From contig JACPDG010000043.1 of assembly GCA_016184125.1 (NCBI GenBank), positions 15,882 through 79,881 on the forward strand: 64,000 nucleotides of DNA, written 5' to 3'. Source of the stretch: Candidatus Rokuibacteriota bacterium (lineage in GTDB: Bacteria; Methylomirabilota; Methylomirabilia; Rokubacteriales; CSP1-6). Made by a program: the position numbers and the translations under genes. The notes under the pieces are model-generated. The model had not been told where the DNA came from. It saw only the letters and a list, made by a program, of their open reading frames with translations, and ran no database searches. Shown here in pieces: positions 5,788 to 44,450 of the stretch. Each line of letters opens with the position of its first letter. The first letter of the stretch is position 1.

Positions 5788-6720
5788 TCACGCGCCCGAA
5801 CGGGCGCGCCGGACGCGACCGCTCTCGAGGAGCAGCGTGAGCGTCTGGCGCTCCCGGAAGAACGTGCGGAAGGGGTCGCCCTTCTGCGCCAGCCGCTCGC
5901 GGATGTTGCCGACGTGGAAGTCCTCGGGGTAGGTCGCGCGCTCGAGCTCGGGCCACTCGAGCGGCGCGGACACCGTGGGGGTGTGCTCGCGCACCGAGTA
6001 CGGGCTGATCATCGTCGCGCTGCGCCGGTTTCGGTGCACGTCGATGAGGATCTTGCCGCGCCGCCGCGCGCGCCGCATGTCCAGCGTGAACAGCGACGGC
6101 TCCCGCGTGCGCGCCATGCGGGTGATGGTCTCCGCGGCGAGCAGCACCTGGTCGTAGGTGTGGATCGGCTCGAGCGGCACCATGACGTGCATGCCGCTGC
6201 CCCCCGACGTCTTCACCCAGCTGCGGATCTTGAACTGCGCGAGCAGGTCGCGCACGAGCATCGCGGCGTTCCGCACCTCGCGGAACGCGATCTCGGTCGG
6301 ATCGAGGTCGAAGAGCAGCATGTCCGGCTTCTCGACGGAGTCGACCGTGCAGTTCCACGGATGGTGCGACACGCAGCCGAGGTTCACCAGATACACGAGC
6401 GCGGCGCGGTCGCTGCCGATGACGTACTCGGCGTACCCGAGCGCCGCGTGGTCCGTGCGGATACGCCGCGTGGGAATCCACGGCGGGAGGCCGGGCGGCG
6501 CCGTCTTCTGATACAGCCAGTCGGTCGCCGATGCCGCCTCGGCGCTCCTGAGCAGGCTCAGCGGCCGGTTCACCAGGAAGGGCATGAGATGGCCGTCCGC
6601 CACGTCGAGGTAGTACTCCATGAGGTCGCCCTTCGTGAATCGCGCCTCGGGCCACAACGCCTTGTCGAGGTCGGACAGGATCAGACGGCGACCATCGATC
6701 TCGCTCAGTCGGGTCGACAT
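5788..6720 (-). CDS. stand-alone LigD polymerase/primase domain (NHEJ PolDom)
   Basis: LLFDLDP...KTSGGSGMHVMVPL motifs characteristic of the archaeo-eukaryotic-primase-like LigD polymerase domain. No ligase or phosphoesterase domain is attached. Confidence 0.8.
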   Translation of the reverse strand: MSTRLSEIDGRRLILSDLDKALWPEARFTKGDLMEYYLDVADGHLMPFLVNRPLSLLRSAEAASATDWLYQKTAPPGLPPWIPTRRIRTDHAALGYAEYVIGSDRAALVYLVNLGCVSHHPWNCTVDSVEKPDMLLFDLDPTEIAFREVRNAAMLVRDLLAQFKIRSWVKTSGGSGMHVMVPLEPIHTYDQVLLAAETITRMARTREPSLFTLDMRRARRRGKILIDVHRNRRSATMISPYSVREHTPTVSAPLEWPELERATYPEDFHVGNIRERLAQKGDPFRTFFRERQTLTLLLESGRVRRARSGA

Positions 6721-6780
6721 CGCCCGCCCGTCAGCGCGCCGCAGACCGCAACACGCTGCGCATGCTCTGCGCCATGCACG

Positions 6781-7080
6781 TCACGCCGCGCGGCGCCGGT
6801 CCGTGGCCGGCCGGTCGTGACGCGCGGCCGCGAAACGGTCCATCGCGGCGAACGCGCCGGCCAAGGCGAGCCCCGTCTGCACGGTCCGCGCGGCGGTGCT
6901 GATGAGCGTGAGCATCGGCACGCGCGAGAGCGCGAGGCCGACGGCGAAGCCGACGGCGATGGTGGCGTACGGGATCCACCAGCGATCGGGCAGGCGGCGC
7001 CCGAGAGCATCGAGCTCGCGCTCGATGAGCTGTCGCGTCAGCGCAATGTCAGCCTGGATCTCGTCTGTCCTGCGAGCCAT
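6781..7080 (-). CDS. DUF3618-like small membrane protein
   Basis: MARRTDEIQADIALTRQLIERELDALGRRL...single TM. The upstream R-rich extension of the track ORF is discarded. Confidence 0.55.
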   Translation of the reverse strand: MARRTDEIQADIALTRQLIERELDALGRRLPDRWWIPYATIAVGFAVGLALSRVPMLTLISTAARTVQTGLALAGAFAAMDRFAAARHDRPATDRRRAA

Positions 7081-7442
7081 CGCCAGGTCTCCCTGAGTGA
7101 AGCGAGCGTTTCGCGCGGCCACTCGAGGTGCGTGAGCCGGTAGGCGCTCCACGCGAGCACCGCGAGGGCGAGGAGCACGACGCCGCCGCCGGCGATGACG
7201 AGCGGCTCCCCGGGGGCATCGAACAGGGGCGCGATCGCGCCGGCGATCAGCACCACGAGCGCTGCGACGAGCGCTGCGGCCGCGACGAGGGCGATCGCGC
7301 CGGCGATCAGCGCGGCGACGGCGACCTCGCGCGTCTCCGCGAGCCCGAGCTCGAGCTCGAGCTTCGCAAGACGGCCGAGACGATCGATGACGCCCGAGGA
7401 ATCGGCGTCGCGCGGCACGTCGAGACGTCGCACGCTGGCCAT
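7038..7442 (-). CDS. phage holin family (holin-X/DUF1469-like) membrane protein
   Basis: MASVRRLDVP...GRLAKLELELGLAETREVAVAALIAGAIALVAAA...two TM helices; commonly co-located with DUF883 and DUF3618. Confidence 0.6.
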   Translation of the reverse strand: MASVRRLDVPRDADSSGVIDRLGRLAKLELELGLAETREVAVAALIAGAIALVAAAALVAALVVLIAGAIAPLFDAPGEPLVIAGGGVVLLALAVLAWSAYRLTHLEWPRETLASLRETWRWLAGQTRSRLTLR

Positions 7443-7525
7443 TGGACGACAGCCAAGCAATTCCGCTGCCGCCGATCGCCGTACGCCGGTGCGGGCGGCC
7501 GCGGCGCGCGCCGCGCATGCGGACG

Positions 7526-10500
7526 TCATCCGAAGTCGTGCGAGCGGACGGCCGGGGCGTTCACGCGGAGCGCGCGGACGCCGTCCGCGCGGATTGAAAT
7601 GACTCCATCCTGCGTTTGTAAGATCCCCTCGACCCAGAGGAACGGCGCGGCCACGAGCGTCAGGCGCTCGCGCGCGAACAGCGGCGGCTGGACGATCACG
7701 TTCGCGAGCCCCGTCTCGTCCTCGAGCGTCAGGAACACGAATCCCTTCGCGGTCCCCGGCCGCTGCCGCACGATGACGCCGCCCGCGATCGCGACGCGAG
7801 CGCCGTCGGCGAGACGGCGGAGATCGATCGCGCGGACCGCGCCGCGGCGGTCGAGCGCGTCCCGCAGCAGCGCGAGCGGGTGACGGCCGAGCGTCACGCC
7901 GGTGCCCGCGTAGTCGGCGGCGAGACGGTCGCGCGCCGCCATCTCCCGGAGCGGATGCGCGCGGGCCTCGCCGGCATCGGCGGGGTCGCGACCGTTCCCG
8001 CGCGCGCTCGCGGCGGTCCCGAACAGCGCGCCGGGCGACGGCACGGCCGCCTCCCACAGCATCGCGCGTCGCGTTCCGCCGAGCGAGGCGAGCGCGCCGA
8101 TCGCCGCGAGCTGCGTGAGCTCGTCGCGGTCGAGCCCGGTCCGGTGTGCGAGATCGTGCACGGAGGTGAACGGCCGCACGCGCCGCGCCGCGACGAGCGC
8201 CTGGCCCGCGCGCTCGCGCAGGCCCTTCACGTAGCGAAGCCCGAGCCGGACGGCGAAGCCGCCGCCGGACGCTTCGAGGGTGCAGCGCCAGTCCGATCGC
8301 GCGACGTCGACGGGCAGGATGCGCTGGCCGTGGCGCTGCGCGTCCTTCACGATCGTCGCCGGGTGGTAGAAGCCCATCGGCTGGTTGTTGAGCAGCGCCG
8401 CGTAGAACGCCGCGGGATGGCGCACCTTGAGGTAGGCGCTGGCGTACGCGAGCAGCGCGAAGCTCGACGCGTGCGCCTCGGGGAACCCGTAGAGCGCGAA
8501 CGACGTGATCGCGTGCACGATCTCGTCGGCGGCCGCGCCCTCGATCCCCTGGCGCGTGAGCCCGGCCCGCAGCTTCGTCTCGATCTCGACCATCCGCCGC
8601 TCGCTGCGCTTGAATCCGAACGCGCGCCGGAGCTCCTCCGCCTCGCTCGCGGTGAACCCGGCCGCGACCATCGCCATGCGGATGAGCTGTTCCTGGAAGA
8701 GCGGCACGCCGAGCGTGCGTTCGAGGATGGGCTGGAGCGAGGGGTGCGCGTACGTGACCGGCTCGCGGCCGCGCCGCCGCCGGATGTAGGGATGCACCAT
8801 GTTGCCGACGATCGGCCCGGGCCGGATGATCGCGACCTGCACGACGAGGTCGTAGAAGCGCTCGGGGTGCACGCGCGGGAGCGTCGCCATCTGCGCGCGG
8901 CTCTCGACCTGGAACACGCCGACCGTGTCCGCGGCCTGGAGACTGCGGTACACCTCCGGGTCGTCGGGCGGCAGGCGCGCCAGATCCACCTCCGCGCCCG
9001 TCTCGCGCACGAGCGCGAGCGCGTCCTGCAGCACGGACATCATGCCGAGCCCGAGCAGGTCGACCTTCACGATGCCGAGCGCGGCGCAGTCGTCCTTGTC
9101 CCACTGGATGACGACGCGGCCCGGCATGGTCGCGGGCTCGAGCGGCACCACGTCGTCGAGCCGCCCCGCGGCGATCACCATCCCGCCGGAGTGCTGGCCG
9201 AGATGACGCGGGAGATCCTGCACGGCGACCCAGAGGGCCGCGAACTTCCGGATGCGCGGATGGCGCGGATCGCAGCCCGCGTCGGCGAGGCGGTGGACGA
9301 GCGATGCACTCGGATCCTGGTAGCCCCAGGTGTCGACGAGCTTCGCGAGCCGGTCCTGGAGCTCCCCGGGGAGCCCGAGCGCCTTGCCGACCTCGCGCGC
9401 GGCGCTCCGACCGCGATACGTGATGACGTTCGCCGTCATGCCGGCGCCGAGACGCCCGTAGCGTCGGTAGACGTACTGGATCACGGCCTCTCGCCGCTCG
9501 CCGCTCGGCAGGTCGAGATCGATGTCCGGCCACTCGCCGCGCGCCTCGGACAGGAACCGCTCGAAGAGGAGATCCATGCCGACGGGATCGACGGCCGTGA
9601 TGCCGAGCGCGTAGCAGACGGCACTGTTGGCCGCCGATCCCCGCCCCTGCACGAGGATGTCGTTCGCGCGGCAGAAGTCGACGACGTCCCGCACGATGAG
9701 GAAGTACCCGGCGAGGTCGAGCCGGCCGATGATCGCGAGCTCGTGCTCGACCTGCCGGCGCGCGCGCGCCGCCAGCGGCCCGTGGCCGTACCGCTCGCGG
9801 ACGCCGCGCTCGACGAGCTCGGAGAGGTGTGCGAGCGGTGTCGAGCCCGGCGGCAGCGGGTAGTCCGGGAAGCGAGAGCCGAGGTCCTTGAGCGTGAACC
9901 CGAGCCGCATCGCGAGCTCCCCGGTCGCGTGGACGGCGTCCGGGAGGTCGGCGAAGATGCGGGTCATGTCCTCGCCGTTCCGCAGCCCGCGCTCCTCGTT
10001 CGCGAGGAGCGCGCGTCCTGCGTGGTCGAGGTCCGTCTTCTCGCGGATGCACGTGAACACGTCGGTCACCGCGCGCCCGGCCGGCCGCGCGTAGAGCGGC
10101 TGGTTGGCGGCGACGAGGCCGACGCCGGCGTCGCGCGCGAGCGTGACGAGGCGCTCGAGGCGCTTCTCCTGCTCGCGGTCGAACTGTCGCTGGACCTCGA
10201 CGAAGCACGAGGAGCGCCCGAAGATGCCGACGAGACGATCGAGCGTGGCGCGCGCGGCGGCGCGGTCGCCGGCCGCGACGGCGCGCGCGAGCGGTCCGTG
10301 CGCGCCGCCGGTGAGACAGACGAGTCCCGACGCGTACGCCTCGACGTCGTCCAGCGTGACGGCCGCCTGCCCCTTCGGCGCGGCGAGCTTGGCGCGCGTC
10401 AGGAGCCGGCACAGGTTCCGGTAGCCCTCCCGGTCCTCGACGAGCAGCGGCAGGCGCGAGCCGTCCGCGAGCGTCACCTCGCTGCCGACGAGCGCCTTGA

Positions 10501-10672
10501 GCCCCGCGTTCGCGGCGGCGCGATAGAACCGCGGCGCGCCGTACACGCCATCACGGTCGACGAGCGCGATCGCCGGCATCTCGAGACGCGCGGCCTCGGC
10601 GACGAGCGTCTCGGGCAGGTCGGCGGCCGCGAGAAACGAGAACGCGGACTGCGCGTGCAGCTCGATGAACAT
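7526..10672 (-). CDS. dnaE2: error-prone DNA polymerase DnaE2 (ImuC)
   Basis: MFIELHAQSAFSFL start, PHP domain and pol III alpha catalytic core; 1048 aa. Confidence 0.95.
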   Translation of the reverse strand: MFIELHAQSAFSFLAAADLPETLVAEAARLEMPAIALVDRDGVYGAPRFYRAAANAGLKALVGSEVTLADGSRLPLLVEDREGYRNLCRLLTRAKLAAPKGQAAVTLDDVEAYASGLVCLTGGAHGPLARAVAAGDRAAARATLDRLVGIFGRSSCFVEVQRQFDREQEKRLERLVTLARDAGVGLVAANQPLYARPAGRAVTDVFTCIREKTDLDHAGRALLANEERGLRNGEDMTRIFADLPDAVHATGELAMRLGFTLKDLGSRFPDYPLPPGSTPLAHLSELVERGVRERYGHGPLAARARRQVEHELAIIGRLDLAGYFLIVRDVVDFCRANDILVQGRGSAANSAVCYALGITAVDPVGMDLLFERFLSEARGEWPDIDLDLPSGERREAVIQYVYRRYGRLGAGMTANVITYRGRSAAREVGKALGLPGELQDRLAKLVDTWGYQDPSASLVHRLADAGCDPRHPRIRKFAALWVAVQDLPRHLGQHSGGMVIAAGRLDDVVPLEPATMPGRVVIQWDKDDCAALGIVKVDLLGLGMMSVLQDALALVRETGAEVDLARLPPDDPEVYRSLQAADTVGVFQVESRAQMATLPRVHPERFYDLVVQVAIIRPGPIVGNMVHPYIRRRRGREPVTYAHPSLQPILERTLGVPLFQEQLIRMAMVAAGFTASEAEELRRAFGFKRSERRMVEIETKLRAGLTRQGIEGAAADEIVHAITSFALYGFPEAHASSFALLAYASAYLKVRHPAAFYAALLNNQPMGFYHPATIVKDAQRHGQRILPVDVARSDWRCTLEASGGGFAVRLGLRYVKGLRERAGQALVAARRVRPFTSVHDLAHRTGLDRDELTQLAAIGALASLGGTRRAMLWEAAVPSPGALFGTAASARGNGRDPADAGEARAHPLREMAARDRLAADYAGTGVTLGRHPLALLRDALDRRGAVRAIDLRRLADGARVAIAGGVIVRQRPGTAKGFVFLTLEDETGLANVIVQPPLFARERLTLVAAPFLWVEGILQTQDGVISIRADGVRALRVNAPAVRSHDFG

Positions 10673-10674
10673 CT

Positions 10675-10752
10675 GATCATGGGGGGACTACCGAAGCCCC
10701 CCATACCCCCCGGCGCTCGGAGCGCCCCGGCCCAGCCGTGGCGCTCCTCGAC
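10675..10752 (+). repeat. family A repeat, copy A2, in the 100-bp gap between imuB and dnaE2
   Basis: TCATGGGGGGACTACCGAAGCCCCCCATACCCCCC...CGCTCGG...CTCCTCGA. Confidence 0.8.
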
Positions 10753-10774
10753 GACACGCTTCGTTCACGGGCCC

Positions 10775-12565
10775 TCAGTCGTACGCTCCGTCGAGATACC
10801 ACTCGCCGGTCATCCGGTCGCGCGCGAGACGGCACAGCATGCCGTCCGCGAGCGCGACGTCCCACTCCTCGCGCGCCCACCCGTTCGTCGTCCACCACTC
10901 GCCCGACGTGCGCCACGGCCCTGCGCTCGCGACGATCGCTTGCGGGCGTGACACACCACCGAGCGCGTCGTGGAACGCCACCTGCACCGGCGCGTCATCC
11001 ACGAGCGTGACGTCGACCCGGCGCGGCGGCCGAACACGCCGGAACGCGAGCGGCATGGTCGGCAGCGACCGCGGCGCGCCCGCATCAGCGTCCGCCCCGG
11101 ACGTCGATGGCACCGTGGCGTCACCGTCGCCGTCCCACACCGGCACCTCGCCGTCGTCGCCGTCCCGCCACGCGTCGTCGTCCGAGAGTTCGAGCAACAA
11201 TCGACCGCCGGGCGGTCGATTGTTGGCTCGAACTGAGTCGGCGACGCGCGGCGGCGCGAACGGCACGAGCGTCACCGGATCGGCGCGATGCGAGTCGAGG
11301 ATCACCGGCGAGCCGACGTTGTCGCGGCCGACGAGCGTCGCGAGCCGGACCAGCGTCTCGGTCAGGTCGCGCAGCGCGGGACCGGGACGTTCGCCGAGCC
11401 TCGCCTGCGCCGCCTCCGCGCGGACGGCGCGCGCGCTCACCGCGACGCGGGTGACCGGCGCCGAGGGTGGACGCGCCTCGAGCTCGAGCGCGACGAGGAC
11501 CAGCATCGGCCGTGGATCGCACGACGGCGACGCGAGCGCCACCGTGCGCACATCGTGGGCGCCGCTCGCGAGCGCGAGCTCGAGCCGCAGCGTGTCGGCC
11601 GACACGTGCCCGGCGGCAAGACGCGCCGTGAGCCGCTCGAGCAGCTGCCGGAGCATCGGCTCGAGCCCGCTCCACGTGTCGACCTCCCAGTCGAGCCCCT
11701 GCGCTTCCTGCCAGAACGGCGGCGGCGACCACGGCCGGAACGCTGTCCGGTCGTGGCCGAGCGCCTCGTCCTGCGCGTCGAGCCCTGCCCGGCCGAGCCG
11801 CGTTCCGAGGCCGTCACGAGGCAGCGCCGCGAGCTCGCCGAGCGTCACGACGCCCCAGCGCGCGAACGTCTCGGCGAGCGGCGGCGCCAGATCGAGGACG
11901 GCGAGCGGCACCGCGCCGAGCGCGTCGCGCTCACATCCAGGCGGGACGACGTGGCAGCGGGACGCGATGGACGTCTCCGCAGGCTCAGGGCCCGTGAACG
12001 CATCCGCGGATCGAGCCGCACGCAAACCCGAGGAGCGCCGCGGGTCCCCCGCGGCGCTTCCGAGCGCGGGGGGTTTGGGGGGCTTCGTTAGTCCCCCCAT
12101 GATGGAGAGTCCGGCGATGCGCGCGGCCGTCCGGGTCCCCGCCACGCCGACGGTCGCGTCGAGCCCGACGCCGCGCGCGGCGCGCACGAGCCGCTCCGCG
12201 ATGCGCCCGTCGTCTCCGAGCAATCGCGCGAGCCCGGCGAGGTCGACGGAGACGATCCCTGGCCCGCCGTCTTCCACGCGTGGCGACACCCCGAGCGCGG
12301 CTTCGAGCAGCGCGTGCTGCGCGAGCGTGGCGCGCTCGTCGGACACGGCGCGGACCGCGAGCGCGACGCAGCGGGCGCGTGCTTCGGTCTCCGTCATCCC
12401 CGGCACGACACCCGCGGCGCGAGCAGCATCGCTCGCCTCGACGATGCGCCGCGCGGGCGGCGTCCCCGTCACCACCGCCAGGGGTCGATCCCGCAGGTCC
12501 GGCTCGCACCGCGCGTGCGCGGCCGCGGCGAAGTGGTCGACGAGCAGGCAGCCGAAGCGGTTCAT
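10775..12565 (-). CDS. imuB: ImuB (Y-family polymerase-like mutasome subunit), carrying two in-frame repeat-derived insertions
   Basis: MNRFGCLLVDHFAAAA...UmuC-like N-terminal domain. ATGA overlap with the imuA stop. The ORF remains open through a family A copy (12039-12103) and a family B palindrome (11186-11236). Confidence 0.8.
   Translation of the reverse strand: MNRFGCLLVDHFAAAAHARCEPDLRDRPLAVVTGTPPARRIVEASDAARAAGVVPGMTETEARARCVALAVRAVSDERATLAQHALLEAALGVSPRVEDGGPGIVSVDLAGLARLLGDDGRIAERLVRAARGVGLDATVGVAGTRTAARIAGLSIMGGLTKPPKPPALGSAAGDPRRSSGLRAARSADAFTGPEPAETSIASRCHVVPPGCERDALGAVPLAVLDLAPPLAETFARWGVVTLGELAALPRDGLGTRLGRAGLDAQDEALGHDRTAFRPWSPPPFWQEAQGLDWEVDTWSGLEPMLRQLLERLTARLAAGHVSADTLRLELALASGAHDVRTVALASPSCDPRPMLVLVALELEARPPSAPVTRVAVSARAVRAEAAQARLGERPGPALRDLTETLVRLATLVGRDNVGSPVILDSHRADPVTLVPFAPPRVADSVRANNRPPGGRLLLELSDDDAWRDGDDGEVPVWDGDGDATVPSTSGADADAGAPRSLPTMPLAFRRVRPPRRVDVTLVDDAPVQVAFHDALGGVSRPQAIVASAGPWRTSGEWWTTNGWAREEWDVALADGMLCRLARDRMTGEWYLDGAYD
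11186..11236. repeat. family B 50-bp palindrome, copy B1, inside imuB
   Basis: GAGTTCGAGCAACAATCGACCGCC-GG-GCGGTCGATTGTTGGCTCGAACT; encodes ...ANNRPPGGRLLLE... in frame. Confidence 0.8.
12039..12103 (-). repeat. family A repeat, copy A3 (reverse orientation), inside imuB
   Basis: Reverse complement reads CCATCATGGGGGGACTAACGAAGCCCCCCAAACCCCCCGCGCTCGGAAGCGCC; encodes ...SIMGGLTKPPKPPALGSAAG... in frame. Confidence 0.75.
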
Positions 12566-13146
12566 GCGCTGAACCGCGCGGCTCCGGGCCACGCGCGGGC
12601 ACGCGGATGGCGTGCCGCGTGCGGCCGCAGGAGGTGCAGCCGCGTGCGCATGGCGGCGAGTCGCGTCGCTCGCGTCCCCGGCCCGGTCCACTCGAGCGCG
12701 TCCTGCACGGTCTCGATCACGAGCGCGGCGCCGGAGCCGGCGACATGACGGCGGCCGAGCAGGACCAGGGCTGCGCGCGTGCGTCGCACCGCGAGCTTGA
12801 GCCGGAACGCGGTCTCGAGCGAGAGCCGCGGCGGCACGTCTCCCGTGTCGAGCGCGACGAGCGCGAACCCGGGGCGACGGACGAGCACGTCGGTCGCGCG
12901 CAGCGCGACCGACCGGCGTCCGGCGCACCGCACCCACAGCAGGCGCCGGAGGTCGACGCCCGCACGCGCGGCCGCGGCGGGATCGAACGCCTCGTCGGTG
13001 TCGACGAGCCCCGCCACGCCGCCGTTCGCGGTGGCGCGCGCAAGCCACGCGAACAGGAGACTCGTGCGGCCGGAGGAGAGCCGGCCGACGATCTCGGTGA
13101 TCTCCGAGAGAGGCGGAAACTCGGGATACATCGCATTTACCTGCAC
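12562..13146 (-). CDS. imuA: ImuA (RecA-fold SOS mutasome component)
   Basis: GRLSSGRTSLLFAWLARATANGGVAGLVDTDEAFDP is a RecA/SulA-like P-loop-degenerate core. Sits upstream of imuB-dnaE2. Confidence 0.8.
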   Translation of the reverse strand: MQVNAMYPEFPPLSEITEIVGRLSSGRTSLLFAWLARATANGGVAGLVDTDEAFDPAAAARAGVDLRRLLWVRCAGRRSVALRATDVLVRRPGFALVALDTGDVPPRLSLETAFRLKLAVRRTRAALVLLGRRHVAGSGAALVIETVQDALEWTGPGTRATRLAAMRTRLHLLRPHAARHPRARAWPGAARFSA

Positions 13147-13183
13147 GCAGCGCGCGGCGCAGCCACATAGCGTCGTGCATGCC

Positions 13184-13203
13184 CGTGATCTATCCTTATC
13201 ACG
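13184..13203. promoter_or_regulatory. palindrome CGTGAT-N8-ATCACG, 38 bp upstream of imuA; candidate SOS (LexA-type) operator
   Basis: Perfect 6-bp inverted arms in the divergent imuA/oxidoreductase promoter region. It does not match any LexA consensus I can name, so this is inference only. Confidence 0.3.
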
Positions 13204-34137: not shown

Positions 34138-34138
<1 letters not shown>

Positions 34139-36174
34139 TGCTGACGGGACGCGGCGCCACGCGGCGCGGCAGCTTCCTGATCGCCGTCGGCGTGTGCGCC
34201 CTGATGGGCACGGTGTGGTTCCTCGCGCCGGCGATGCTCACGCAGGCCGACTTCGCGCTGTACGACCAGCATTTCCGCTGGCGCGGCGCCCGGCCGGGTC
34301 ACCCGCAGGTCGCGATCGTCGCCATCGACGAGCCGAGCCTGCGCGCCATCGGGCGATGGCCCTGGCCGCGCACGGTGCTCGCCGAGCTCATCCGGCGCCT
34401 CGACGAGGCGGGCGCGGCGGCGATCGGCGTCGACGTGATCCTGAACGAGCCGGAGCGGAGCGGCGAGCTCGAGGCGGCGACGCGGCTGCGCGAGCGCCTG
34501 CGGGCGGTGGGCGCGCCGGCCGCCGTGCTGCGCGAGGTCGACGCGACGATCCAGGCCGCTGATCACGACCGGATGCTGGCCGACGCGATCGCCGCGAGCG
34601 GCCGCGTCGTCCTTCCGAGCCTGTTCAACGTCAGTATTGAGCCGCCCAAGCAGGCGCCGGAACGCGTTGGCCAGCCGTTCAAGTCCGCGCTCGTGCGGTT
34701 CAAGCAGTACGACGACCGCGGCCTGTTCCCACCGGTCAACGCGGACAGCGTCGGCCTGCCGATCCCACCGCTGCTGGCTGCGGCCCAGGGAGTCGGCCAC
34801 GTCTACATGCTCGCCGACTCGGACGGCACGACGCGGTGGGAGGCGCTCGCCATCGAGTACCGCGGGCACTACTATCCCAGCCTTGCGGTGGAGACGGTGC
34901 GCGTCGCCGCCGGGCTCGAGCCCACCGCCCTGACGCTCGACTTCGGCACCGCGCTCGTGCTCGGCGATCTCGAGATCCCCATCGACGCGCGGGCACGAGT
35001 GCTCATCGGATACGCCGGCCCCGTGCACTCCTTCCCGCACCATTCCGCCGCGGATGTCCTGGCCGGCCGCGTCCCGCCCGAGCGCCTCCGCGATCGCATC
35101 GTGTTCGTCGGCGCGACGGCGGAAGGCACGTACGACCTGCGAGTCACGCCGTTCTCGCCCGTCCTCCCCGGCGTCGAGAAGCACGCGAACGTCGCGGCCA
35201 ACATCCTCGACGGGCGCTTCCTCGTGCGGCCGCCGCTGGTCGAGCTCTTCGAGGTGCTGGCCGCCGTGGCGCTGCCGTTCCTGCTCGCCTGGCTGCTCCC
35301 GCGCCTGCGTCCGATCCCGAGCGTCGGGGTGACGCTCGTCCTCGGCGCCGCGGTCCTCGGCGGGGCGCACCTGGCCTTCCGGCAGGGCCTCTGGCTGCCC
35401 GCGGTCTACCCGGCGGTCGCGATCGCCGTCACGTTCGTCGGCGTGACCGTCTTTCGGTTCTTCACCGAGGAGCGCCAGCGGCTCTGGACGAAGCGCGCGT
35501 TCCAGCAGTACGTCAGCCCCGAGGTCGTCGACCGGATCGTCGAGGATCCCGCCGCGCTCCAGTTCGGGGGCGAGGTGCGGAACCTGACCGTCCTCTTCGT
35601 CGACATCCGCGACTTCACGGGCTTCACCGAGCGGCACGATCCCCACGAGGTCGTGGCGATGCTGCGCGAGCACTTCACGCGCCTCACGAACCGCGTCCTC
35701 GAGGAGGGCGGCACGCTCGACAAGTACATCGGGGACGCGATCATGGCGATCTTCGGTGCGCCGGTCCCGGCCGCGGACCACGCGGAGCGGGCGTGCCGCG
35801 CCGCGTGGAGAATGGTCGAGGAGGCGGAACGCCTGCGAGACAAGTGGCAGGGCGAGGGGCGCGAGCCGTTCCGGATCGGTGTCGGGATCAACACGGGCGA
35901 CATGGTCGTCGGCAACCTCGGCTCCGAGCAGCTCTTCACGTACACCGTCGTCGGCGACGAGGTGAACCTCGGCGCACGGATCGAGACGCTCAACAAGGAG
36001 CACGCGACGACGCGCCCGATCATCATCAGCGAGTCGACGTACGAGGCCGCGCGTAACGCGATCGAGGCGCGGGTGCTCGGGGAGGTCAAGGTGCGCGGCA
36101 AGACGCGGCCCGTCGTGATCTACGAGCTCACCGGTCTTCGGTCGCCGACGCCCGAGCCGCAGGTCCCCGCGTAA
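34138..36174 (+). CDS. CHASE2 sensor domain plus class III adenylate/guanylate cyclase
   Basis: N-terminal CHASE2 (periplasmic) with TM helices, then a cyclase homology domain (VLFVDIRDFTGFTE...GDAIMAIFG...GINTGDMVVGNLGS). ATG overlaps the metH TGA (ATGA). Confidence 0.9.
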
Positions 36175-36180
36175 CGCGCG

Positions 36181-36313
36181 GGGGCGGGGGACGGGGCGGG
36201 GGCCCCTCGGAAATCCGCGCGCGGACCACGGCCGGCGTCCCACAACAGCCGGACTTCGAGGTCGACCTTAGCCCAACGGATTTCCGAGGGGCCCCCGCCC
36301 CGTCCCCCGCCCG
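36181..36313. repeat. TIR-bearing MITE-like element E1 (37-bp terminal inverted repeats GGGGCGGGGGACGGGGCGGGGGCCCCTCGGAAATCCG)
   Basis: Perfect inverted termini flank a ~60-bp core; starts 7 nt after the cyclase stop. Confidence 0.7.
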
Positions 36314-36422
36314 GGCGCTTCCCGCGCACCCGCCGTCATCCGCCCGCCGCGCTGAGTCCGTCCACTCACCGACCGCGACCGGCCGTGTGACGCGCTGGCT
36401 TCGGCAACCCGCGTACTTCCCC

Positions 36423-36576
36423 ACGCGGTTCAGCAACCGCGCTCGGTGGCGTCCACCTCGGTGCTTCGGATTCTTTTTCTCGAAAAGGTCCCCCGCCCCC
36501 GCGGGCGGTTCAGCGGCTCGGCGACGTCAATTCCGCTTCGGATTCGTGATTCTCGAAAGGCCCCCCGGCCCCACGC
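36423..36576 (+). repeat. tandem direct repeat (2 x ~75 bp), units ending CTTCGGATTC...TTCTCGAAA(A)GG(T)CCCCCG(C)CCCC
   Basis: Units at 36423-36503 and 36505-36576 share CGGTTCAGC...GCTTCGGATTC-N-TTCTCGAAAGG-CCCCC blocks. Confidence 0.6.
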
Positions 36577-36692
36577 TCCCGCCGTCAGAAGACCGCCGTG
36601 CGACAAGGTCGCTCCGAATCGGCCAGAACCGACACAGTGGTGCGGTTCGATGTTCGAACTCGACGCTGCGCGCCGCCACGCGTGTTGAGATT

Positions 36693-36820
36693 GGCGGGCG
36701 GCGGGAGGGGACTCCCTCAGAAATCCGTTGGCCTAAGGTTGACCTCGGAGTGCGCGCGTTGTGCGACTCCCGGCGTGGTACGGGCGCGGATTTCTGAGGG
36801 AGTCCCCTCCCGCCGCCCGC
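36693..36820. repeat. TIR-bearing MITE-like element E2 (35-bp TIRs GGCGGGCGGCGGGAGGGGACTCCCTCAGAAATCCG); diverged copy of E1 in opposite orientation
   Basis: Core is ~75% reverse-complementary to the E1 core (shared ACCACGCCGG...CACAAC...GAGGTCAACCTTAGGCCAA); ends 12 nt before the cytochrome c stop. Confidence 0.7.
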
Positions 36821-36831
36821 CGGCCTCGCGC

Positions 36832-37797
36832 TCAGTGGTGGCAGGCGACGCAGTCGAGCGGAGCGTTGCGGTCAGGCTTCGTGTTCTCGCGCCGGTGGCA
36901 GTCCAGGCACCAGCCCATCGTCAAGGGGCGCGGATCCGGTCGCAGACCGACGAGATGGAGAATGTCGCTGGCCAGCTGCGGGCCGACGTCGGCGCCCACG
37001 ACCCGCATCCGCTCGATCGGGCCGTGACACGTCTGGCACTCGACACGCGCCCGCACGTGGGCCTTGTGGGGGAAGTACGTGAACTCCGGCATCTTGAAGA
37101 TCCGGATCCACGGGATCGGCTCCTGCCGCGCCCAGTAGTCGTGGACCTTGCGGATCTCGGGGTTGTCCGTCGCCCCGATGATCTTGTGGCAGCCCATGCA
37201 CCGCTCGACCGACGGCAGCCCCGCGTACTCGGAGCGTCGCGCCTCCGTGTGGCAGTACTGGCAGGCGATGTGGAACGAGCCGGCGTGCACGACGTGACTG
37301 AAGAAGATGGGCTGTCGCGGCGCGTTCGGCGGCGTGACGATCGGCTTGGCCGCGGCCGCCACGAACGGCGGGTCGGCGAGCGTCCGGATGTACCGGATCA
37401 CGCGGCGCACCTGGCCGTCTCCGAGGTACGCGGCGAACGCCGGCATCGTCGGTGCGAGCCCCTCGGCGGTGCCGCCGTTCAGGATCACGTTCGCCAGGAA
37501 CTCGTCCGGCAGCGGATTCATGATGCGGCCGTCGGTCAGATCCGCGGGCTTCGTGGCCAGAGCACCGGCCGAAGGCCCATCGCCGCGACCGCCTTCACCG
37601 TGGCAGGGGAGGCAATACTGCGCGTAGATCGCGCGGTCGGCCGGATCCCGAGCGGCCGGAGGCGCGGCGCTCACGCGCGCGCCGAGCAGACCACCGGCAA
37701 GAACCCCCAGCGCCAGCAGCCCGAGCGCCCACGCGCGTCGGGACGCGACGAACGCGCTACTGCTTGATGAGGTTCCGCCGGCGTTCGAGGTACGCAT
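36832..37797 (-). CDS. multiheme c-type cytochrome (6 CxxCH motifs; monoheme module plus pentaheme NrfB/ActA-like module)
   Basis: CLPCH, CQYCH, CMGCH, CQTCH, CLDCH and CVACH; signal peptide. Confidence 0.85.
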   Translation of the reverse strand: MRTSNAGGTSSSSSAFVASRRAWALGLLALGVLAGGLLGARVSAAPPAARDPADRAIYAQYCLPCHGEGGRGDGPSAGALATKPADLTDGRIMNPLPDEFLANVILNGGTAEGLAPTMPAFAAYLGDGQVRRVIRYIRTLADPPFVAAAAKPIVTPPNAPRQPIFFSHVVHAGSFHIACQYCHTEARRSEYAGLPSVERCMGCHKIIGATDNPEIRKVHDYWARQEPIPWIRIFKMPEFTYFPHKAHVRARVECQTCHGPIERMRVVGADVGPQLASDILHLVGLRPDPRPLTMGWCLDCHRRENTKPDRNAPLDCVACHH

Positions 37798-42537: not shown

Positions 42538-43383
42538 TCAGCGCCCCTGAACGAATCGCGCCCTCGAGGGCCGTCCCGGGTTCCGCGGGTGCGTCCGCGC
42601 ACCCCCCGGGACGGCTCCGAGCGCTGGGGGCCGGGGGAGTCCGAGGGGGGCGTCAGCCCCCTTCGTGCGATGGTCGGGGGCCATGTCGGGGCCCCCCATG
42701 ATCTCAGTTCGAGCGACAATCGACCGCCGCGGCGGTCGATTGTCGCTCGAACTCTCAGACGTCACCCCGGCCCGCGTCCCACGACGGCGCACGCGGAACG
42801 CGCGCACCGCGCCGGCCAGGCGCACGCCGAGCAGCACGGCGAGGATGGCCGCGTACACGTACGGCTCGATGCGCCCGACCTTGGCGAGCCACATGAAGTG
42901 CAGCACGCCCAGCACGGCCGCGACGTACACGATGCGGTGGAGCCGGCGCCATGCCCGCGCGCCGAGACGCTTCACCATCCCGGACGTCGACGTCGCGGCG
43001 AGGAGGACGAGCAGCGCGAGCGCCGAGACGCCGACCGTGATGTACGGCCGCTTCACGATGTCCGCGCCCATCTGCGCCCACGCGAAGAAGTGGTCGAGCA
43101 CGACCCAGACGAGGAAGTGCAGCGACACGTAGAAGAACGCGAACAGCCCGAGGAGGCGGCGGAGGATCAGCGGCCAGCCGATGCCGAGCACGAGACGCAG
43201 CGGTGTGAGGGCGAGGCTCGCGAGCAGCATCCGCATGCCCCAGCGACCCAGCGTGTCGGTGACGAAGTCGATGGGGTTCGCGGTCAGGTCGCCCGTCCAC
43301 GCGCGCCAGGCCAGCAGCGCGAGCGGTACCAGGCAAGCGCCCCAGACCAGGGTCTTCAGCAGGATTCGCCCGCGTCGCGTCAC
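42538..43383 (-). CDS. msrQ: MsrQ (heme-binding membrane subunit of the MsrPQ methionine sulfoxide reductase), with ~70-aa repeat-encoded C-terminal extension
   Basis: Six-TM ferric-reductase-like core (FFYVSLHFLVWVVLD...HRIVYVAAVLGVLHFMWL). The ORF stays open through B2 and A13 to a stop at 42538. Confidence 0.75.
   Translation of the reverse strand: MTRRGRILLKTLVWGACLVPLALLAWRAWTGDLTANPIDFVTDTLGRWGMRMLLASLALTPLRLVLGIGWPLILRRLLGLFAFFYVSLHFLVWVVLDHFFAWAQMGADIVKRPYITVGVSALALLVLLAATSTSGMVKRLGARAWRRLHRIVYVAAVLGVLHFMWLAKVGRIEPYVYAAILAVLLGVRLAGAVRAFRVRRRGTRAGVTSESSSDNRPPRRSIVARTEIMGGPDMAPDHRTKGADAPLGLPRPPALGAVPGGARTHPRNPGRPSRARFVQGR
42560..42702 (-). repeat. family A repeat-derived block A13 (two partial reverse copies including the GGGTGCGTCCGCGCACC module)
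   Basis: CCCGGGTTCCGCGGGTGCGTCCGCGCACCCCCCGGG...GGGGGCCATGTCGGGGCCCCCCATGATCTC. Confidence 0.65.
42707..42754. repeat. family B palindrome, copy B2
   Basis: AGTTCGAGCGACAATCGACCGCC-GC-GGCGGTCGATTGTCGCTCGAACT; carries a compensatory C-G change relative to B1 and B4. Confidence 0.8.
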
Positions 43384-44402: not shown

Positions 44403-44450
44403 AGTTCGAGCAACCATCGACCGCCGCGGCGGTCGATGGTTGCTCGAGTT
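44403..44450. repeat. family B palindrome, copy B3
   Basis: TTCGAGCAACCATCGACCGCC-GCG-GCGGTCGATGGTTGCTCGAG, with a compensatory CC-GG pair. Lies between the response-regulator stop and the msrP start. Confidence 0.75.

What the first reader, a model, noticed from the sequence alone, without database searches (positions are those of the whole stretch)
36181..36820. 650-bp convergent intergenic block built from two inverted TIR elements and tandem direct repeats
Between the cyclase stop (36174) and the cytochrome c stop (36832) there is no credible ORF. Instead there are three repeat components. Element E1 (36181-36313) has perfect 37-bp terminal inverted repeats, GGGGCGGGGGACGGGGCGGGGGCCCCTCGGAAATCCG. 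Element E2 (36693-36820) has 35-bp TIRs, GGCGGGCGGCGGGAGGGGACTCCCTCAGAAATCCG, and its core is a diverged reverse-complement of the E1 core. Between them a ~75-bp unit is directly repeated twice (36423-36503 and 36505-36576), each copy ending ...GCTTCGGATTC..TTCTCGAAAGG.CCCCCG.CCCC. Each TIR element would fold into a ~35-bp-stem hairpin. E1 and E2 look like two old, diverged insertions of the same MITE-like element in opposite orientation. The whole block could act as a bidirectional terminator or insulator, or could encode a structured small RNA.
Basis: seen in the sequence. Interest (0 to 1): 0.6.

Follow-up and report, generated by a model that had tools for sequence, protein, structure and literature searches.

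The report
Mirrored giant hairpins between convergent genes
Two very long, perfectly paired hairpins sit one behind each of two convergent genes in an uncultured soil bacterium (Rokubacteria); relatives carry related hairpins at the same junction, so they look like conserved gene-end structures rather than jumping DNA, and they are a modest curiosity, not a new mechanism.

Summary
E1 (36182-36312) and E2 (36693-36821) are perfect 36- and 35-bp GC-rich stems around 59-nt loops. The E2 loop is the reverse complement of the E1 loop (48/60). All 8 arm differences are compensated. Between them lie 380 nt of non-coding, unstructured DNA with one diverged tandem duplication.

The organism is a Candidatus Rokubacteria (Methylomirabilota) member. 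Related hairpins occupy the same cytochrome c / CHASE2-cyclase junction in two other genomes: one in L006 and three in MAG GCA_016179175.1, which has a 768-nt spacer. They share an inner stem C.GGAAWTC.G and polar loop ends (CG... / ...CCAA). In five members, 15 of 20 inner-stem pairs covary.

The MITE reading is not supported. There are no target-site duplications and no clean presence/absence boundaries. No other copy turned up in the window, in 886 kb of related DNA, or in three public-collection pattern scans. The window encodes no transposase. Hairpin number still turns over fast between relatives.

Most likely these are REP/BIME-like 3'-end RNA structures, one per convergent mRNA, acting as exonuclease blocks and read-through barriers. 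Their stems would be kept perfect by selection plus arm-to-arm template switching. They lack U-tracts, so they are not canonical terminators. Function is inferred, not shown. Interest is moderate to low.

The parts
34138..36174 (+). CHASE2 adenylate/guanylate cyclase gene; stop codon ends at 36174, 7 nt before the E1 stem
   Evidence: Translation. Homologs carry PF05226 + PF00211. Synteny with L006, L097 and the P0001 contig.
36182..36217 (+). E1 5' arm, G-rich (56% G), contains a canonical G-quadruplex motif
   Evidence: Perfect 36-bp complementarity to 36277-36312.
36218..36276 (+). E1 loop, 59 nt. Starts CGCGCG and ends GCCCAA. Read on the + strand, which is the sense of the cyclase mRNA.
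   Evidence: The loop alone is not structured beyond chance (z 0.16).
36277..36312 (+). E1 3' arm, C-rich
36313..36692 (.). 380-nt middle segment: non-coding, no excess RNA structure on either strand, no relatives anywhere in the DNA examined
   Evidence: GC3 flat. Fold z 0.16 and 1.1. BLAST finds nothing.
36423..36503 (+). Tandem unit A. Its last 16 nt (36488-36503) are perfectly complementary to 36177-36192, at the outer edge of the E1 5' arm.
   Evidence: (I4).
36505..36576 (+). Tandem unit B, a diverged and gapped copy of unit A
   Evidence: z 17, 0 of 500 shuffles.
36693..36727 (-). E2 arm. On the - strand (sense of the cytochrome c mRNA) this is the C-rich 3' arm.
   Evidence: Perfect 35-bp complementarity.
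36728..36786 (-). E2 loop, 59 nt. On the - strand it reads CGCCCG...GGCCAA, the same polarity as E1 has on the + strand.
36787..36821 (-). E2 arm. On the - strand this is the G-rich 5' arm and begins 10 nt after the cytochrome c stop.
36832..37797 (-). c-type cytochrome gene (monohaem domain plus multihaem c3/c7-like domain); stop codon at 36832-36834
   Evidence: Translation. Pfam hits on record. 1567 homologs, the named ones from Rokubacteria/Methylomirabilota.

Best explanation
E1 and E2 are two mirror-oriented copies of a hairpin element that belongs to this particular convergent junction (cytochrome c -> <- CHASE2 cyclase) in a subclade of Candidatus Rokubacteria.

Each copy lies 7-10 nt behind the stop codon of one gene. 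Each is oriented so that that gene's transcript reads, in order: G-rich arm, loop (CG...CCAA), C-rich arm.

Proposed mechanism (inferred, not shown): each convergent mRNA folds its own 35-36-bp GC-rich hairpin (about -110 to -128 kcal/mol) at its 3' end. The hairpin blocks 3'->5' exonucleases and so defines and stabilises the mRNA end. It also hinders polymerases from running into the opposing gene. In short, it works like REP/BIME elements, which act as 3'-UTR stabiliser and attenuator. It does not work like a U-tract intrinsic terminator.

The 380-nt middle is filler that keeps the two ends apart and carries a local tandem duplication.

The stems stay perfect through selection for pairing. 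This is probably helped by intra-palindrome template switching, in which a change in one arm is copied into the other.

In the window's lineage the two hairpins were homogenised or one was re-copied from the other, because E1 and E2 resemble each other more than either resembles its positional counterpart in relatives.
For: Shown:
1. Position and polarity. The E1 stem starts 7 nt after the cyclase stop and the E2 stem 10 nt after the cytochrome c stop, each in the same polarity relative to its gene.
2. Related hairpins at the same junction. L006 has one hairpin in a 218-nt spacer. MAG GCA_016179175.1, rebuilt from L088 + L097 through an exact 112-nt overlap, has a 768-nt spacer with HC, HB and HA. 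HA (cytochrome side) and HB (cyclase side) show the same head-to-head polarity as E2 and E1.
3. Sequence-family evidence. Covariance model R2 scores the five junction members at 97-106 bits in sense and 35-43 in antisense. They share the inner stem C.GGAAWTC.G and the loop ends CG.. / ..CCAA.
4. The stem is maintained. 26 of 42 pairs show compensatory change in four sequences. 15 of 20 inner pairs change on both sides, no shuffle out of 500 reaches this, and slid controls collapse. E1 against E2 shows 8 of 8 arm differences compensated.
5. HB and its L006 ortholog are 82% identical (arms 85-90%, loop 76%), against 87% for the adjacent coding DNA. The arms therefore evolve about as slowly as genes.
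6. Confined to this junction. No other hit with E < 0.1 in 503 kb and nothing by BLAST in 886 kb.

From the literature:
- REPs act as partial terminators and mRNA stabilisers, and REPs between convergent genes go with raised expression of both genes (bioRxiv 10.64898/2026.03.23.713779).
- Hairpins without U-tracts in GC-rich bacteria may define 3' ends by blocking exonucleases after factor-dependent termination (PMC3993855).
- Template switching makes quasipalindromes perfect (PMC7202029).
Against: - There are no expression data, so termination and stabilisation are pure inference.
- No U-tract follows any member and the consensus scan finds no terminator.
- Stems of 35-51 bp and loops of 59-76 nt are far larger than a 3'-end hairpin needs. 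dsRNA that long would be an RNase III substrate, which could destabilise the mRNA rather than protect it.
- The conserved inner stem and polar loop ends are not explained by a plain 'stable hairpin' function.
- In the MAG, HA and HB lie 160 and 252 nt from their stop codons, and other hairpins sit closer. Immediate adjacency to the stop is therefore not conserved.
- Close relatives do without the hairpins. The spacer is about 119 nt in the 91%-identical relative, about 20-38 nt in L024 and L089, and absent in L096, which lacks the cytochrome gene.
- The polarity argument rests on only 3-5 semi-independent observations (p roughly 1/8 to 1/32).
- A probable relative (L097 6488-6584; 36.5 bits over 6510-6562) lies in a divergent promoter gap, not at a 3' end.
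Confidence: 0.45

Rival explanations
1. Selfish, non-autonomous mobile DNA (MITE- or REPIN-like). The hairpins are copied around the genome by a transposase encoded elsewhere (for example a RAYT/IS200-type enzyme, which leaves no target duplication). Their presence at this junction reflects tolerance of insertions between convergent genes, not a function.
For: - Hairpin number at the junction changes fast. The MAG and L006 are 87% identical in coding DNA, yet carry three hairpins against one. The spacer is 657 nt here and about 119 nt in a 91%-identical relative.
- E1 and E2 are inverted copies of each other, which implies a copying event.
- REPINs also form hairpins with compensatory changes, occur in clusters, and leave no target duplications (PMC3116915).
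- A probable relative lies 5.5 kb away in the MAG (L097 6488-6584, 36.5 bits).
- Hairpins of the same architecture occur at other junctions (L096 1639-1770, L012 3162-3310).
Against: - No target-site duplication at any of nine hairpins.
- Indels between the L006 and MAG spacers do not coincide with hairpin borders.
- No second locus in 64 kb of the same genome.
- Three collection scans with the conserved motifs found no relative.
- Copies within one genome are 55-78% identical, not the near-identical swarm of an active family.
- The conserved part is the inner stem and loop junction, not the element ends.
- Left out of training, the L096 hairpin scores only 18 bits, no better than the unrelated L012 hairpin.
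- No transposase or RAYT domain in the window.
Confidence: 0.2
2. Neutral by-product. Long palindromes arise and grow in dispensable convergent spacers through replication template switching or snap-back synthesis. The same process keeps them perfect. They persist because nothing selects against them.
For: - 71 of 71 perfect Watson-Crick pairs in E1 and E2, with no G-T intermediates, fits arm-to-arm copying better than stepwise compensatory mutation.
- Template switching is known to perfect quasipalindromes (PMC7202029).
- The spacer is highly variable and dispensable in relatives.
- A second, unrelated palindrome family in the window also shows compensated differences.
- The middle segment contains a plain tandem duplication.
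Against: - Recognisable sequence conservation of the inner stem and polar loop ends across genomes about 77% identical in coding DNA.
- HB arms are conserved at the coding rate.
- Identical 59-nt loop length in E1 and E2, and 75-76 nt in HA, HB and L006.
- Head-to-head polarity is kept in two genomes even though E1 and E2 were re-copied.
- Long palindromes are normally unstable and deleted unless something favours them (general knowledge).
Confidence: 0.15
3. DNA-level protein-binding sites. The conserved inner stem is a (quasi)palindromic 10-mer: CGGAATTCCG in HA and CGGAAATCCG / CGGATTTCCG in E1. It occurs twice per element, 69-86 bp apart, and could bind a dimeric regulator or nucleoid protein, possibly on a cruciform.
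For: - The inner 10 bp is the best-conserved part of the arms.
- In HA it is an exact palindrome.
- The probable relative L097 6488-6584, which shares this inner stem, lies in a divergent promoter gap.
Against: - A symmetric DNA site does not explain the conserved loop polarity or the 25-40 further base pairs of variable stem.
- No candidate binding protein is linked to the locus.
- The motif is not enriched elsewhere in the window (7 matches with up to 2 mismatches against 3.3 expected, 4 of them the elements themselves).
Confidence: 0.08
4. A free-standing structured small RNA gene or genes in the spacer.
For: Very stable, covarying stem. Polar, partly conserved loop.
Against: - No promoter-like site.
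- No Rfam family at gathering score; the weak hits are plant/animal miRNA precursors, meaning generic long hairpins.
- Loops and middle segment are no more structured than shuffles.
- No conserved loop substructure.
- The element is absent from close relatives.
Confidence: 0.05

Closest known systems
REP / BIME elements of Enterobacteria and Pseudomonas (repetitive extragenic palindromes and their clusters)
   Same: GC-rich extragenic palindromes at gene 3' ends, often between convergent genes and often in clusters with alternating orientation. They fold into RNA hairpins reported to stabilise upstream mRNA and attenuate read-through (bioRxiv 10.64898/2026.03.23.713779). Their locations vary between strains.
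   Different: REPs are 20-40 nt, with short loops, hundreds of copies per genome and a conserved GTAG/CGTC tag (PMC3733652 abstract). Here the stems are 35-51 bp around 59-76-nt loops. Copies are known only at one junction, plus one probable relative. There is no tag, and copies within a genome are only 55-78% identical.
REPINs (REP doublets forming hairpins, mobilised by RAYT transposases)
   Same: Two inverted arms separated by a spacer, about 70-110+ nt in all. They are predicted to form one long hairpin in ssDNA or RNA, show compensatory changes along the stem, make no target duplications, and can form clusters (PMC3116915).
   Different: In REPINs the invariant 16-mers are at the two ends, the family is abundant and nearly identical within a genome, and a RAYT gene is linked. 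Here the conserved part is the inner stem and loop junction while the outer arms vary. Abundance was not demonstrated. No RAYT was seen in 64 kb.
MITEs (for example Correia/NEMIS, or Tn3-derived TIMEs)
   Same: Small size (about 130 nt), long terminal inverted repeats, intergenic location, potential to fold as a hairpin in transcripts.
   Different: No target-site duplication, no demonstrated multi-copy family, and no matching IS terminal repeats. The arms differ between copies but are perfect within each copy.
Bidirectional intrinsic terminators at convergent genes
   Same: A symmetric hairpin shared by, or placed behind, two convergent genes. The single L006 hairpin sits 25 and 40 nt from the two stop codons.
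   Different: Canonical terminators have 5-20-bp stems, 3-8-nt loops and flanking A/U tracts. None of these features is present. Mycobacterial RNAP did not terminate at hairpins lacking U-tracts in vitro (PMC3993855).

Membership tests
MITE | Terminal inverted repeats | tested here: met
   Perfect 36- and 35-nt inverted arms.
MITE | Target-site duplication flanking the element | tested here: not met
   Systematic scan of nine hairpins, allowing boundary shifts of +/-4. Only inconsistent 3-5-nt GC-rich matches appeared.
MITE | Many dispersed, similar copies in the genome | tested here: inconclusive
   None elsewhere in the 64-kb window or in 886 kb of related DNA. Pattern scans of GTDB genomes, JGI metagenomes and IMG/VR found no relative. 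The rest of the source genome could not be searched.
MITE | Terminal repeats match those of an autonomous IS / transposase present | tested here: not met
   No transposase domain in the window's ORFs. No similarity in plasmid or phage collections, all E >= 2. A recalled resemblance to Tn21-type repeats is at chance level, sits internally rather than terminally, and has the wrong length.
REP / REPIN | Extragenic inverted doublet folding into one hairpin, with compensatory changes | tested here: met
REP / REPIN | Highly conserved, over-represented terminal 16-mers; GTAG or CGTC tag | tested here: not met
   Outer arms differ between all copies. The conserved part is the inner stem and loop junction. 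No tag at the ends.
REP / REPIN | High copy number within a genome | tested here: inconclusive
   Two copies in 64 kb, both at one junction. The whole genome was not available.
REP / REPIN | Linked RAYT (Y1 transposase) gene | tested here: inconclusive
   None in the window. A RAYT is usually single-copy, so 64 kb cannot exclude one.
Canonical intrinsic terminator | GC-rich hairpin shortly after the stop codon | tested here: met
   7 and 10 nt after the stop codons.
Canonical intrinsic terminator | Short loop (3-8 nt), stem up to about 20 bp, followed by a U-tract | tested here: not met
   Loops of 59 nt, stems of 35-36 bp, 0-5 T in the 15 nt downstream and no T run.
Any Rfam family | Score at or above the family's gathering threshold | tested here: not met
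   No hits in the whole window. Sub-threshold hits only to miRNA-precursor models, 31-44 bits against thresholds of 68-168.
Protein-coding gene in the spacer | Codon-position GC bias as in neighbouring genes; homologs | tested here: not met
   GC3 flat at 0.64-0.71. Peptides from the open antisense frames have no homolog among 5.8 billion proteins.
Rokubacteria junction-hairpin family (defined here) | Stem of at least 35 bp; inner stem C.GGAAWTC.G; loop of 59-76 nt starting CG/CA and ending CCAA/CCTA; located in the cytochrome c / cyclase spacer | tested here: met
   E1 and E2 score 97-99 bits with model R2. They were in the training set, so this is descriptive. The truncated HB copy on L088, which was not in the training set, scores 52 bits.

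The most novel reading that the evidence does not exclude
The hairpins are a previously undescribed class of polar, transcription-oriented palindromic elements with their own copying mechanism. That mechanism could be an unknown hairpin-recognising (HUH/RAYT-like) enzyme acting at the conserved CCG|CG...CCAA|CGG stem-loop junction, or hairpin-templated copying. Rokubacteria would have recruited them as paired insulators for convergent genes. The perfect arms would then reflect an active arm-copying step rather than selection alone.
Probability: 0.12. Interest if true: 0.6.

Novelty: new variant of a known kind. Interest (0 to 1): 0.35.

Why it matters
If the reading is right, an uncultured and abundant soil phylum marks the ends of convergent genes with unusually large hairpins. 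These have 35-51-bp stems, 60-75-nt loops and polar loop ends, which differs from the REP, REPIN, MITE and intrinsic-terminator types known from model bacteria.

That would help annotate 3' ends and operon boundaries in very GC-rich genomes, where U-tract terminators are rare.

It would also give a clean natural case for asking how long palindromes stay perfect, whether through selection on RNA pairing or through arm-to-arm template switching.

There is a practical point too. Perfect arms longer than the assembler's k-mer break short-read assemblies exactly here. Four Logan contigs and both contigs of an NCBI MAG end inside these hairpins. Such elements are therefore systematically under-represented in metagenome assemblies.

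Tried and rejected
- Rfam, gathering and permissive thresholds: nothing real.
- Collection scans. Inner-stem pattern in IMG/VR: 0 hits. In GTDB genomes: one unrelated low-GC Alistipes hairpin. Core pattern in JGI metagenomes: 0 hits. These patterns were built from E1 and E2 alone and would miss variants such as HA and HB, so the negatives exclude only close copies.
- blastn of the block against plasmids and phages: only chance hits, E >= 2.
- Tn3/Tn21-type terminal-repeat resemblance (GGGGGC.CCTC.GAAA..., ...CTAAG). This was recalled from memory. By my own estimate, about one such match is expected by chance over the families I could recall. It is also internal rather than terminal and 7 nt too short, with no 5-bp duplication. 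Rejected.
- Tandem units as decayed half-elements of E1/E2: not significant. The only exception is a 16-nt perfect complement between the unit A tail and the outer E1 arm, in a low-complexity G/C run.
- By-eye homology of the E1 arm with the L096 hairpin arm: marginal against dinucleotide shuffles (38 of 1000). It failed leave-one-out (18.1 bits sense against 16.5 antisense, the same as the L012 hairpin). The 'dispersed family' claim was therefore withdrawn.
- Spurious-ORF trick (peptides from the two open antisense frames searched against 5.8 billion proteins): no hits, uninformative.
- Closest relative (91% aa, P0001/P0122 contig): no DNA retrievable. The same applies to P0002 and P0004.
- L008's 1.1-kb spacer holds an extra gene and is not comparable.
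- Promoter inside the loops: none found by consensus scan.
- Assembly artefact: rejected.
Full report
**1. What is there**

The 657 nt between the stop of a CHASE2 adenylate cyclase gene (+, ends 36174) and the stop of a c-type cytochrome gene (-, 36832-36834) contain two extreme hairpins.
- E1: perfect 36-bp stem 36182-36217 / 36277-36312, loop 59 nt.
- E2: perfect 35-bp stem 36693-36727 / 36787-36821, loop 59 nt.

The E2 loop equals the reverse complement of the E1 loop at 48 of 60 aligned positions. The direct orientation gives only noise. The arms differ at 8 aligned positions, all mirrored on the partner arm. Across 71 pairs there is no mismatch and no G-T.

As RNA the elements fold at -108 to -128 kcal/mol, z -9 to -13. 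The loops on their own (z 0.2 and -1.0) and the 380-nt middle segment on either strand (z 0.2 and 1.1) are no more structured than shuffles.

The middle segment holds one diverged, gapped tandem duplication, 36423-36503 / 36505-36576 (z 17). Nothing in the spacer looks coding: GC3 is 0.64-0.71, against 0.88-0.94 in the neighbouring genes.

**2. Not an artefact, and whose genome**

Identical cytochrome genes occur on four Logan contigs from soil runs SRR121134xx. All four match the window exactly. Three stop inside the perfect right arm of E2, as a k=31 assembler must, and the fourth covers the loop and right arm.

Homologs of both flanking proteins that carry names are from Candidatus Rokubacteria / Methylomirabilota. 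Window GC is about 72%.

**3. Search for further copies**

None was found:
- in the window by pattern, covariance model or BLAST;
- in plasmid or phage collections;
- with the E1/E2 inner-stem or core patterns in IMG/VR, GTDB species genomes or JGI metagenomes.

The single GTDB hit is an unrelated low-GC Alistipes hairpin. Rfam has no matching family.

**4. Comparative genomics of the junction**

The neighbourhood is syntenic in relatives: M16 peptidases, two small genes, MlaA, cytochrome c -> <- cyclase, MetH. The convergent spacer varies enormously:

| Relative | Spacer |
|---|---|
| 91%-identical relative (gene coordinates only, no DNA) | about 119 nt |
| L024 and L089 | about 20-38 nt |
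| L096 (cytochrome gene absent; cyclase overlaps MlaA) | none |
| L006 | 218 nt, one long hairpin (39-nt arms, 75-nt loop) |
| NCBI MAG GCA_016179175.1 | 768 nt |

I rebuilt the MAG junction from two contigs that both end inside hairpins and overlap exactly by 112 nt. Its layout is:
- cyclase stop, then 24 nt
- HC (34-nt arms, 26-nt loop), then 134 nt
- HB (39-nt arms, 75-nt loop), then 26 nt
- HA (51-nt arms, 76-nt loop), then about 130 nt
- a small hairpin, then the cytochrome stop

HB is the ortholog of the L006 hairpin. They are 82% identical overall (arms 85-90%, loop 76%), against 87% for adjacent coding DNA.

**5. A sequence family tied to this junction**

Aligned in one polarity, E1, rc-E2, HA, HB and rc-L006 share three features:
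- the inner stem C.GGAAWTC.G;
- a loop beginning CG/CA (..CACG);
- a loop ending ..GTCGA..CCAA (CCTA in L006) directly before the 3' arm.

A covariance model of the five scores them at 97-106 bits in that polarity and 35-43 bits in the opposite one. It also finds the truncated second copy of HB at 52 bits.

The stem covaries. In four sequences, 26 of 42 pairs show compensatory change. For the inner 20 bp, 15 of 20 pairs change on both sides, no shuffle out of 500 reaches this, and slid controls fall to 2-5 pairs.

Polarity is consistent. E1 and HB read 'sense' for the cyclase side, and E2 and HA for the cytochrome side, so the CCAA ends face each other in both genomes. Yet E1 and E2 are 76% identical to each other and only 51-60% identical to HA or HB. 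In the window's lineage, then, one hairpin was re-copied from the other or the two were homogenised, and the mirrored polarity was kept.

**6. Is it mobile?**

Evidence against:
- no target-site duplication at any of nine hairpins;
- the large indels that separate the L006 and MAG spacers do not follow hairpin borders;
- no other locus in the same 64 kb;
- copies within a genome are far from identical;
- no transposase or RAYT domain in the window's ORFs, including those in the gaps of my gene map.

Evidence that keeps the idea alive:
- the fast gain and loss of whole hairpins;
- the E1/E2 copying event;
- one probable relative 5.5 kb away in the MAG (L097 6488-6584, 42-nt arms, 13-nt loop, inner stem CGGAAACCCG). 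It scores 36.5 bits in both models without ever being in the training set, and it lies in a divergent promoter gap.

Two further hairpins of the same architecture exist: L096 1639-1770 (perfect 36-nt arms, 60-nt loop, 15 nt after an RNase D-like gene) and L012 3162-3310. I first took the L096 hairpin for a family member because its loop ends GGCCAA|CGG. Tested properly, its arm similarity is marginal (38 of 1000 shuffles). Left out of training, it scores 18.1 bits sense and 16.5 antisense, no better than L012 at 22.4 and 19.9. I therefore do not count it. What can be said is that long GC-rich hairpins with large loops recur in intergenic DNA of this clade, while the demonstrable sequence family sits at one junction.

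**7. Mechanism**

Shown:
- position directly behind both stop codons;
- mirrored polarity;
- maintained pairing;
- conservation at one junction.

Inferred: each convergent mRNA ends in its own hairpin, which blocks 3' exonucleases and hinders read-through into the opposing gene. This is the dual role reported for E. coli REP elements, including raised expression of both genes when a REP lies between convergent genes (bioRxiv 10.64898/2026.03.23.713779).

They are not canonical intrinsic terminators. No U-tract follows any member and the consensus scan finds no terminator. Mycobacterial RNA polymerase did not terminate at hairpins without U-tracts, and the authors of that study suggest such 3'-UTR structures define ends by stopping exonucleases after factor-dependent termination (PMC3993855).

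The complete absence of mismatches and wobble pairs in E1 and E2, despite 8 paired substitutions, fits arm-to-arm template switching, which is known to make quasipalindromes perfect (PMC7202029). Selection on pairing is not excluded.

Left unexplained by this model:
- why the stems are so long;
- why the loops keep their length and polar ends;
- why a probable relative sits in a promoter gap.

**8. Comparison and verdict**

The closest known things are REP/BIME clusters and REPINs (PMC3116915). The elements resemble them in place, hairpin form, compensatory change and lack of duplications. They differ in size, in which part is conserved, in demonstrated copy number, and in the absence of a tag or a linked RAYT. 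They fail the defining tests for MITEs (target duplication) and for intrinsic terminators (U-tract, short loop).

I file them as a new variant of the 'extragenic palindrome at gene ends' kind. They are specific to a Rokubacteria subclade, and the function is inferred. Interest is moderate to low. The finding is real and tidy, the family appears undescribed, and no new principle has been demonstrated.

Noticed in passing
window 42706-42753 and 44406-44447: A second, unrelated palindrome family. It has 48- and 42-nt perfect palindromes (TCGAGC.AC.ATCGACCGCCGCGGCGGTCGAT.GT.GCTCGA) 1.7 kb apart. Each fills a short co-directional gap right after a stop codon on the - strand (MsrQ-like / M16 peptidase junction and response-regulator / MsrP-like junction). 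Differences between the two copies (GACAA/TTGTC against AACCA/TGGTT) are again compensated. Could be REP-like, an intercistronic processing hairpin, or an operator.
   Followed up: partly
L097 12059-12152 (HC) and L088 8662-8690: In MAG GCA_016179175.1 each convergent gene has its own additional proximal hairpin. HC (34-nt arms, 26-nt loop) lies 24 nt after the cyclase stop. An approximately 10-bp GC hairpin lies 2 nt after the cytochrome c stop. A 31-codon ORF (L088 8718-8813), with no obvious ribosome-binding site, lies between the small hairpin and HA.
   Followed up: no
L097 6488-6584: 42-nt-arm hairpin (40 pairs, 13-nt loop) in the 160-nt divergent gap between the CoA-transferase and MetH genes. 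Its inner stem CGGAAACCCG resembles that of E1/E2, and positions 6510-6562 score 36.5 bits with both covariance models. It sits in a promoter region, not at a 3' end.
   Followed up: partly
L096 1639-1770; L012 3162-3310: Two more long hairpins of the same architecture at other junctions: perfect 36-nt arms with a 60-nt loop (L096), and 38-nt arms with a 73-nt loop (L012). They are not demonstrably homologous to E1/E2. Long GC-rich hairpins with big loops may be a general feature of intergenic DNA in this clade.
   Followed up: partly
L001-L004 ends; L088 and L097 contig ends: Short-read assemblies break exactly inside the perfect arms. This affects the Logan contigs (k=31) and both contigs of an NCBI MAG, which overlap by 112 nt and could be joined. 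Such hairpins are therefore a systematic cause of contig ends and are under-represented in assemblies.
   Followed up: yes
L096 12051-12064: In a relative with 80% cyclase identity the cytochrome c gene is missing altogether, and the cyclase and MlaA genes converge with a 14-nt overlap. The cytochrome gene and its hairpin block behave as a variable insert in an otherwise syntenic region.
   Followed up: no
window 36180-36202: The G-rich arm of E1 (GGGGGCGGGGGACGGGGCGGGGG) is a canonical four-tract G-quadruplex motif, and so is the arm of the L096 hairpin. The other members lack one, so it is probably incidental to G richness.
   Followed up: partly
window 5788-13189: A LigD-like polymerase-domain gene, a DnaE2-type error-prone polymerase (7526-10687, -) and an ImuB-like Y-family gene (within 10775-13189, -). 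Together they look like a damage-inducible mutagenesis cassette. DnaE2 and LigD were identified by reading the translations; ImuB has Pfam hits (IMS; translations).
   Followed up: no
L043 about 10507-10730: An array of roughly 50-nt tandem repeats (..GACGAGCGGACGGAGCCGGACGTGCCTGTGACTCGCCACCC..) directly downstream of the cytochrome c homolog in a more distant relative.
   Followed up: no
L035 1180-1301: A 22-nt-arm hairpin with a 78-nt loop made of repeated CCCTCTCCCC / GGGGAGAGGG motifs downstream of a distant cytochrome homolog. It is unrelated in sequence to E1/E2.
   Followed up: no
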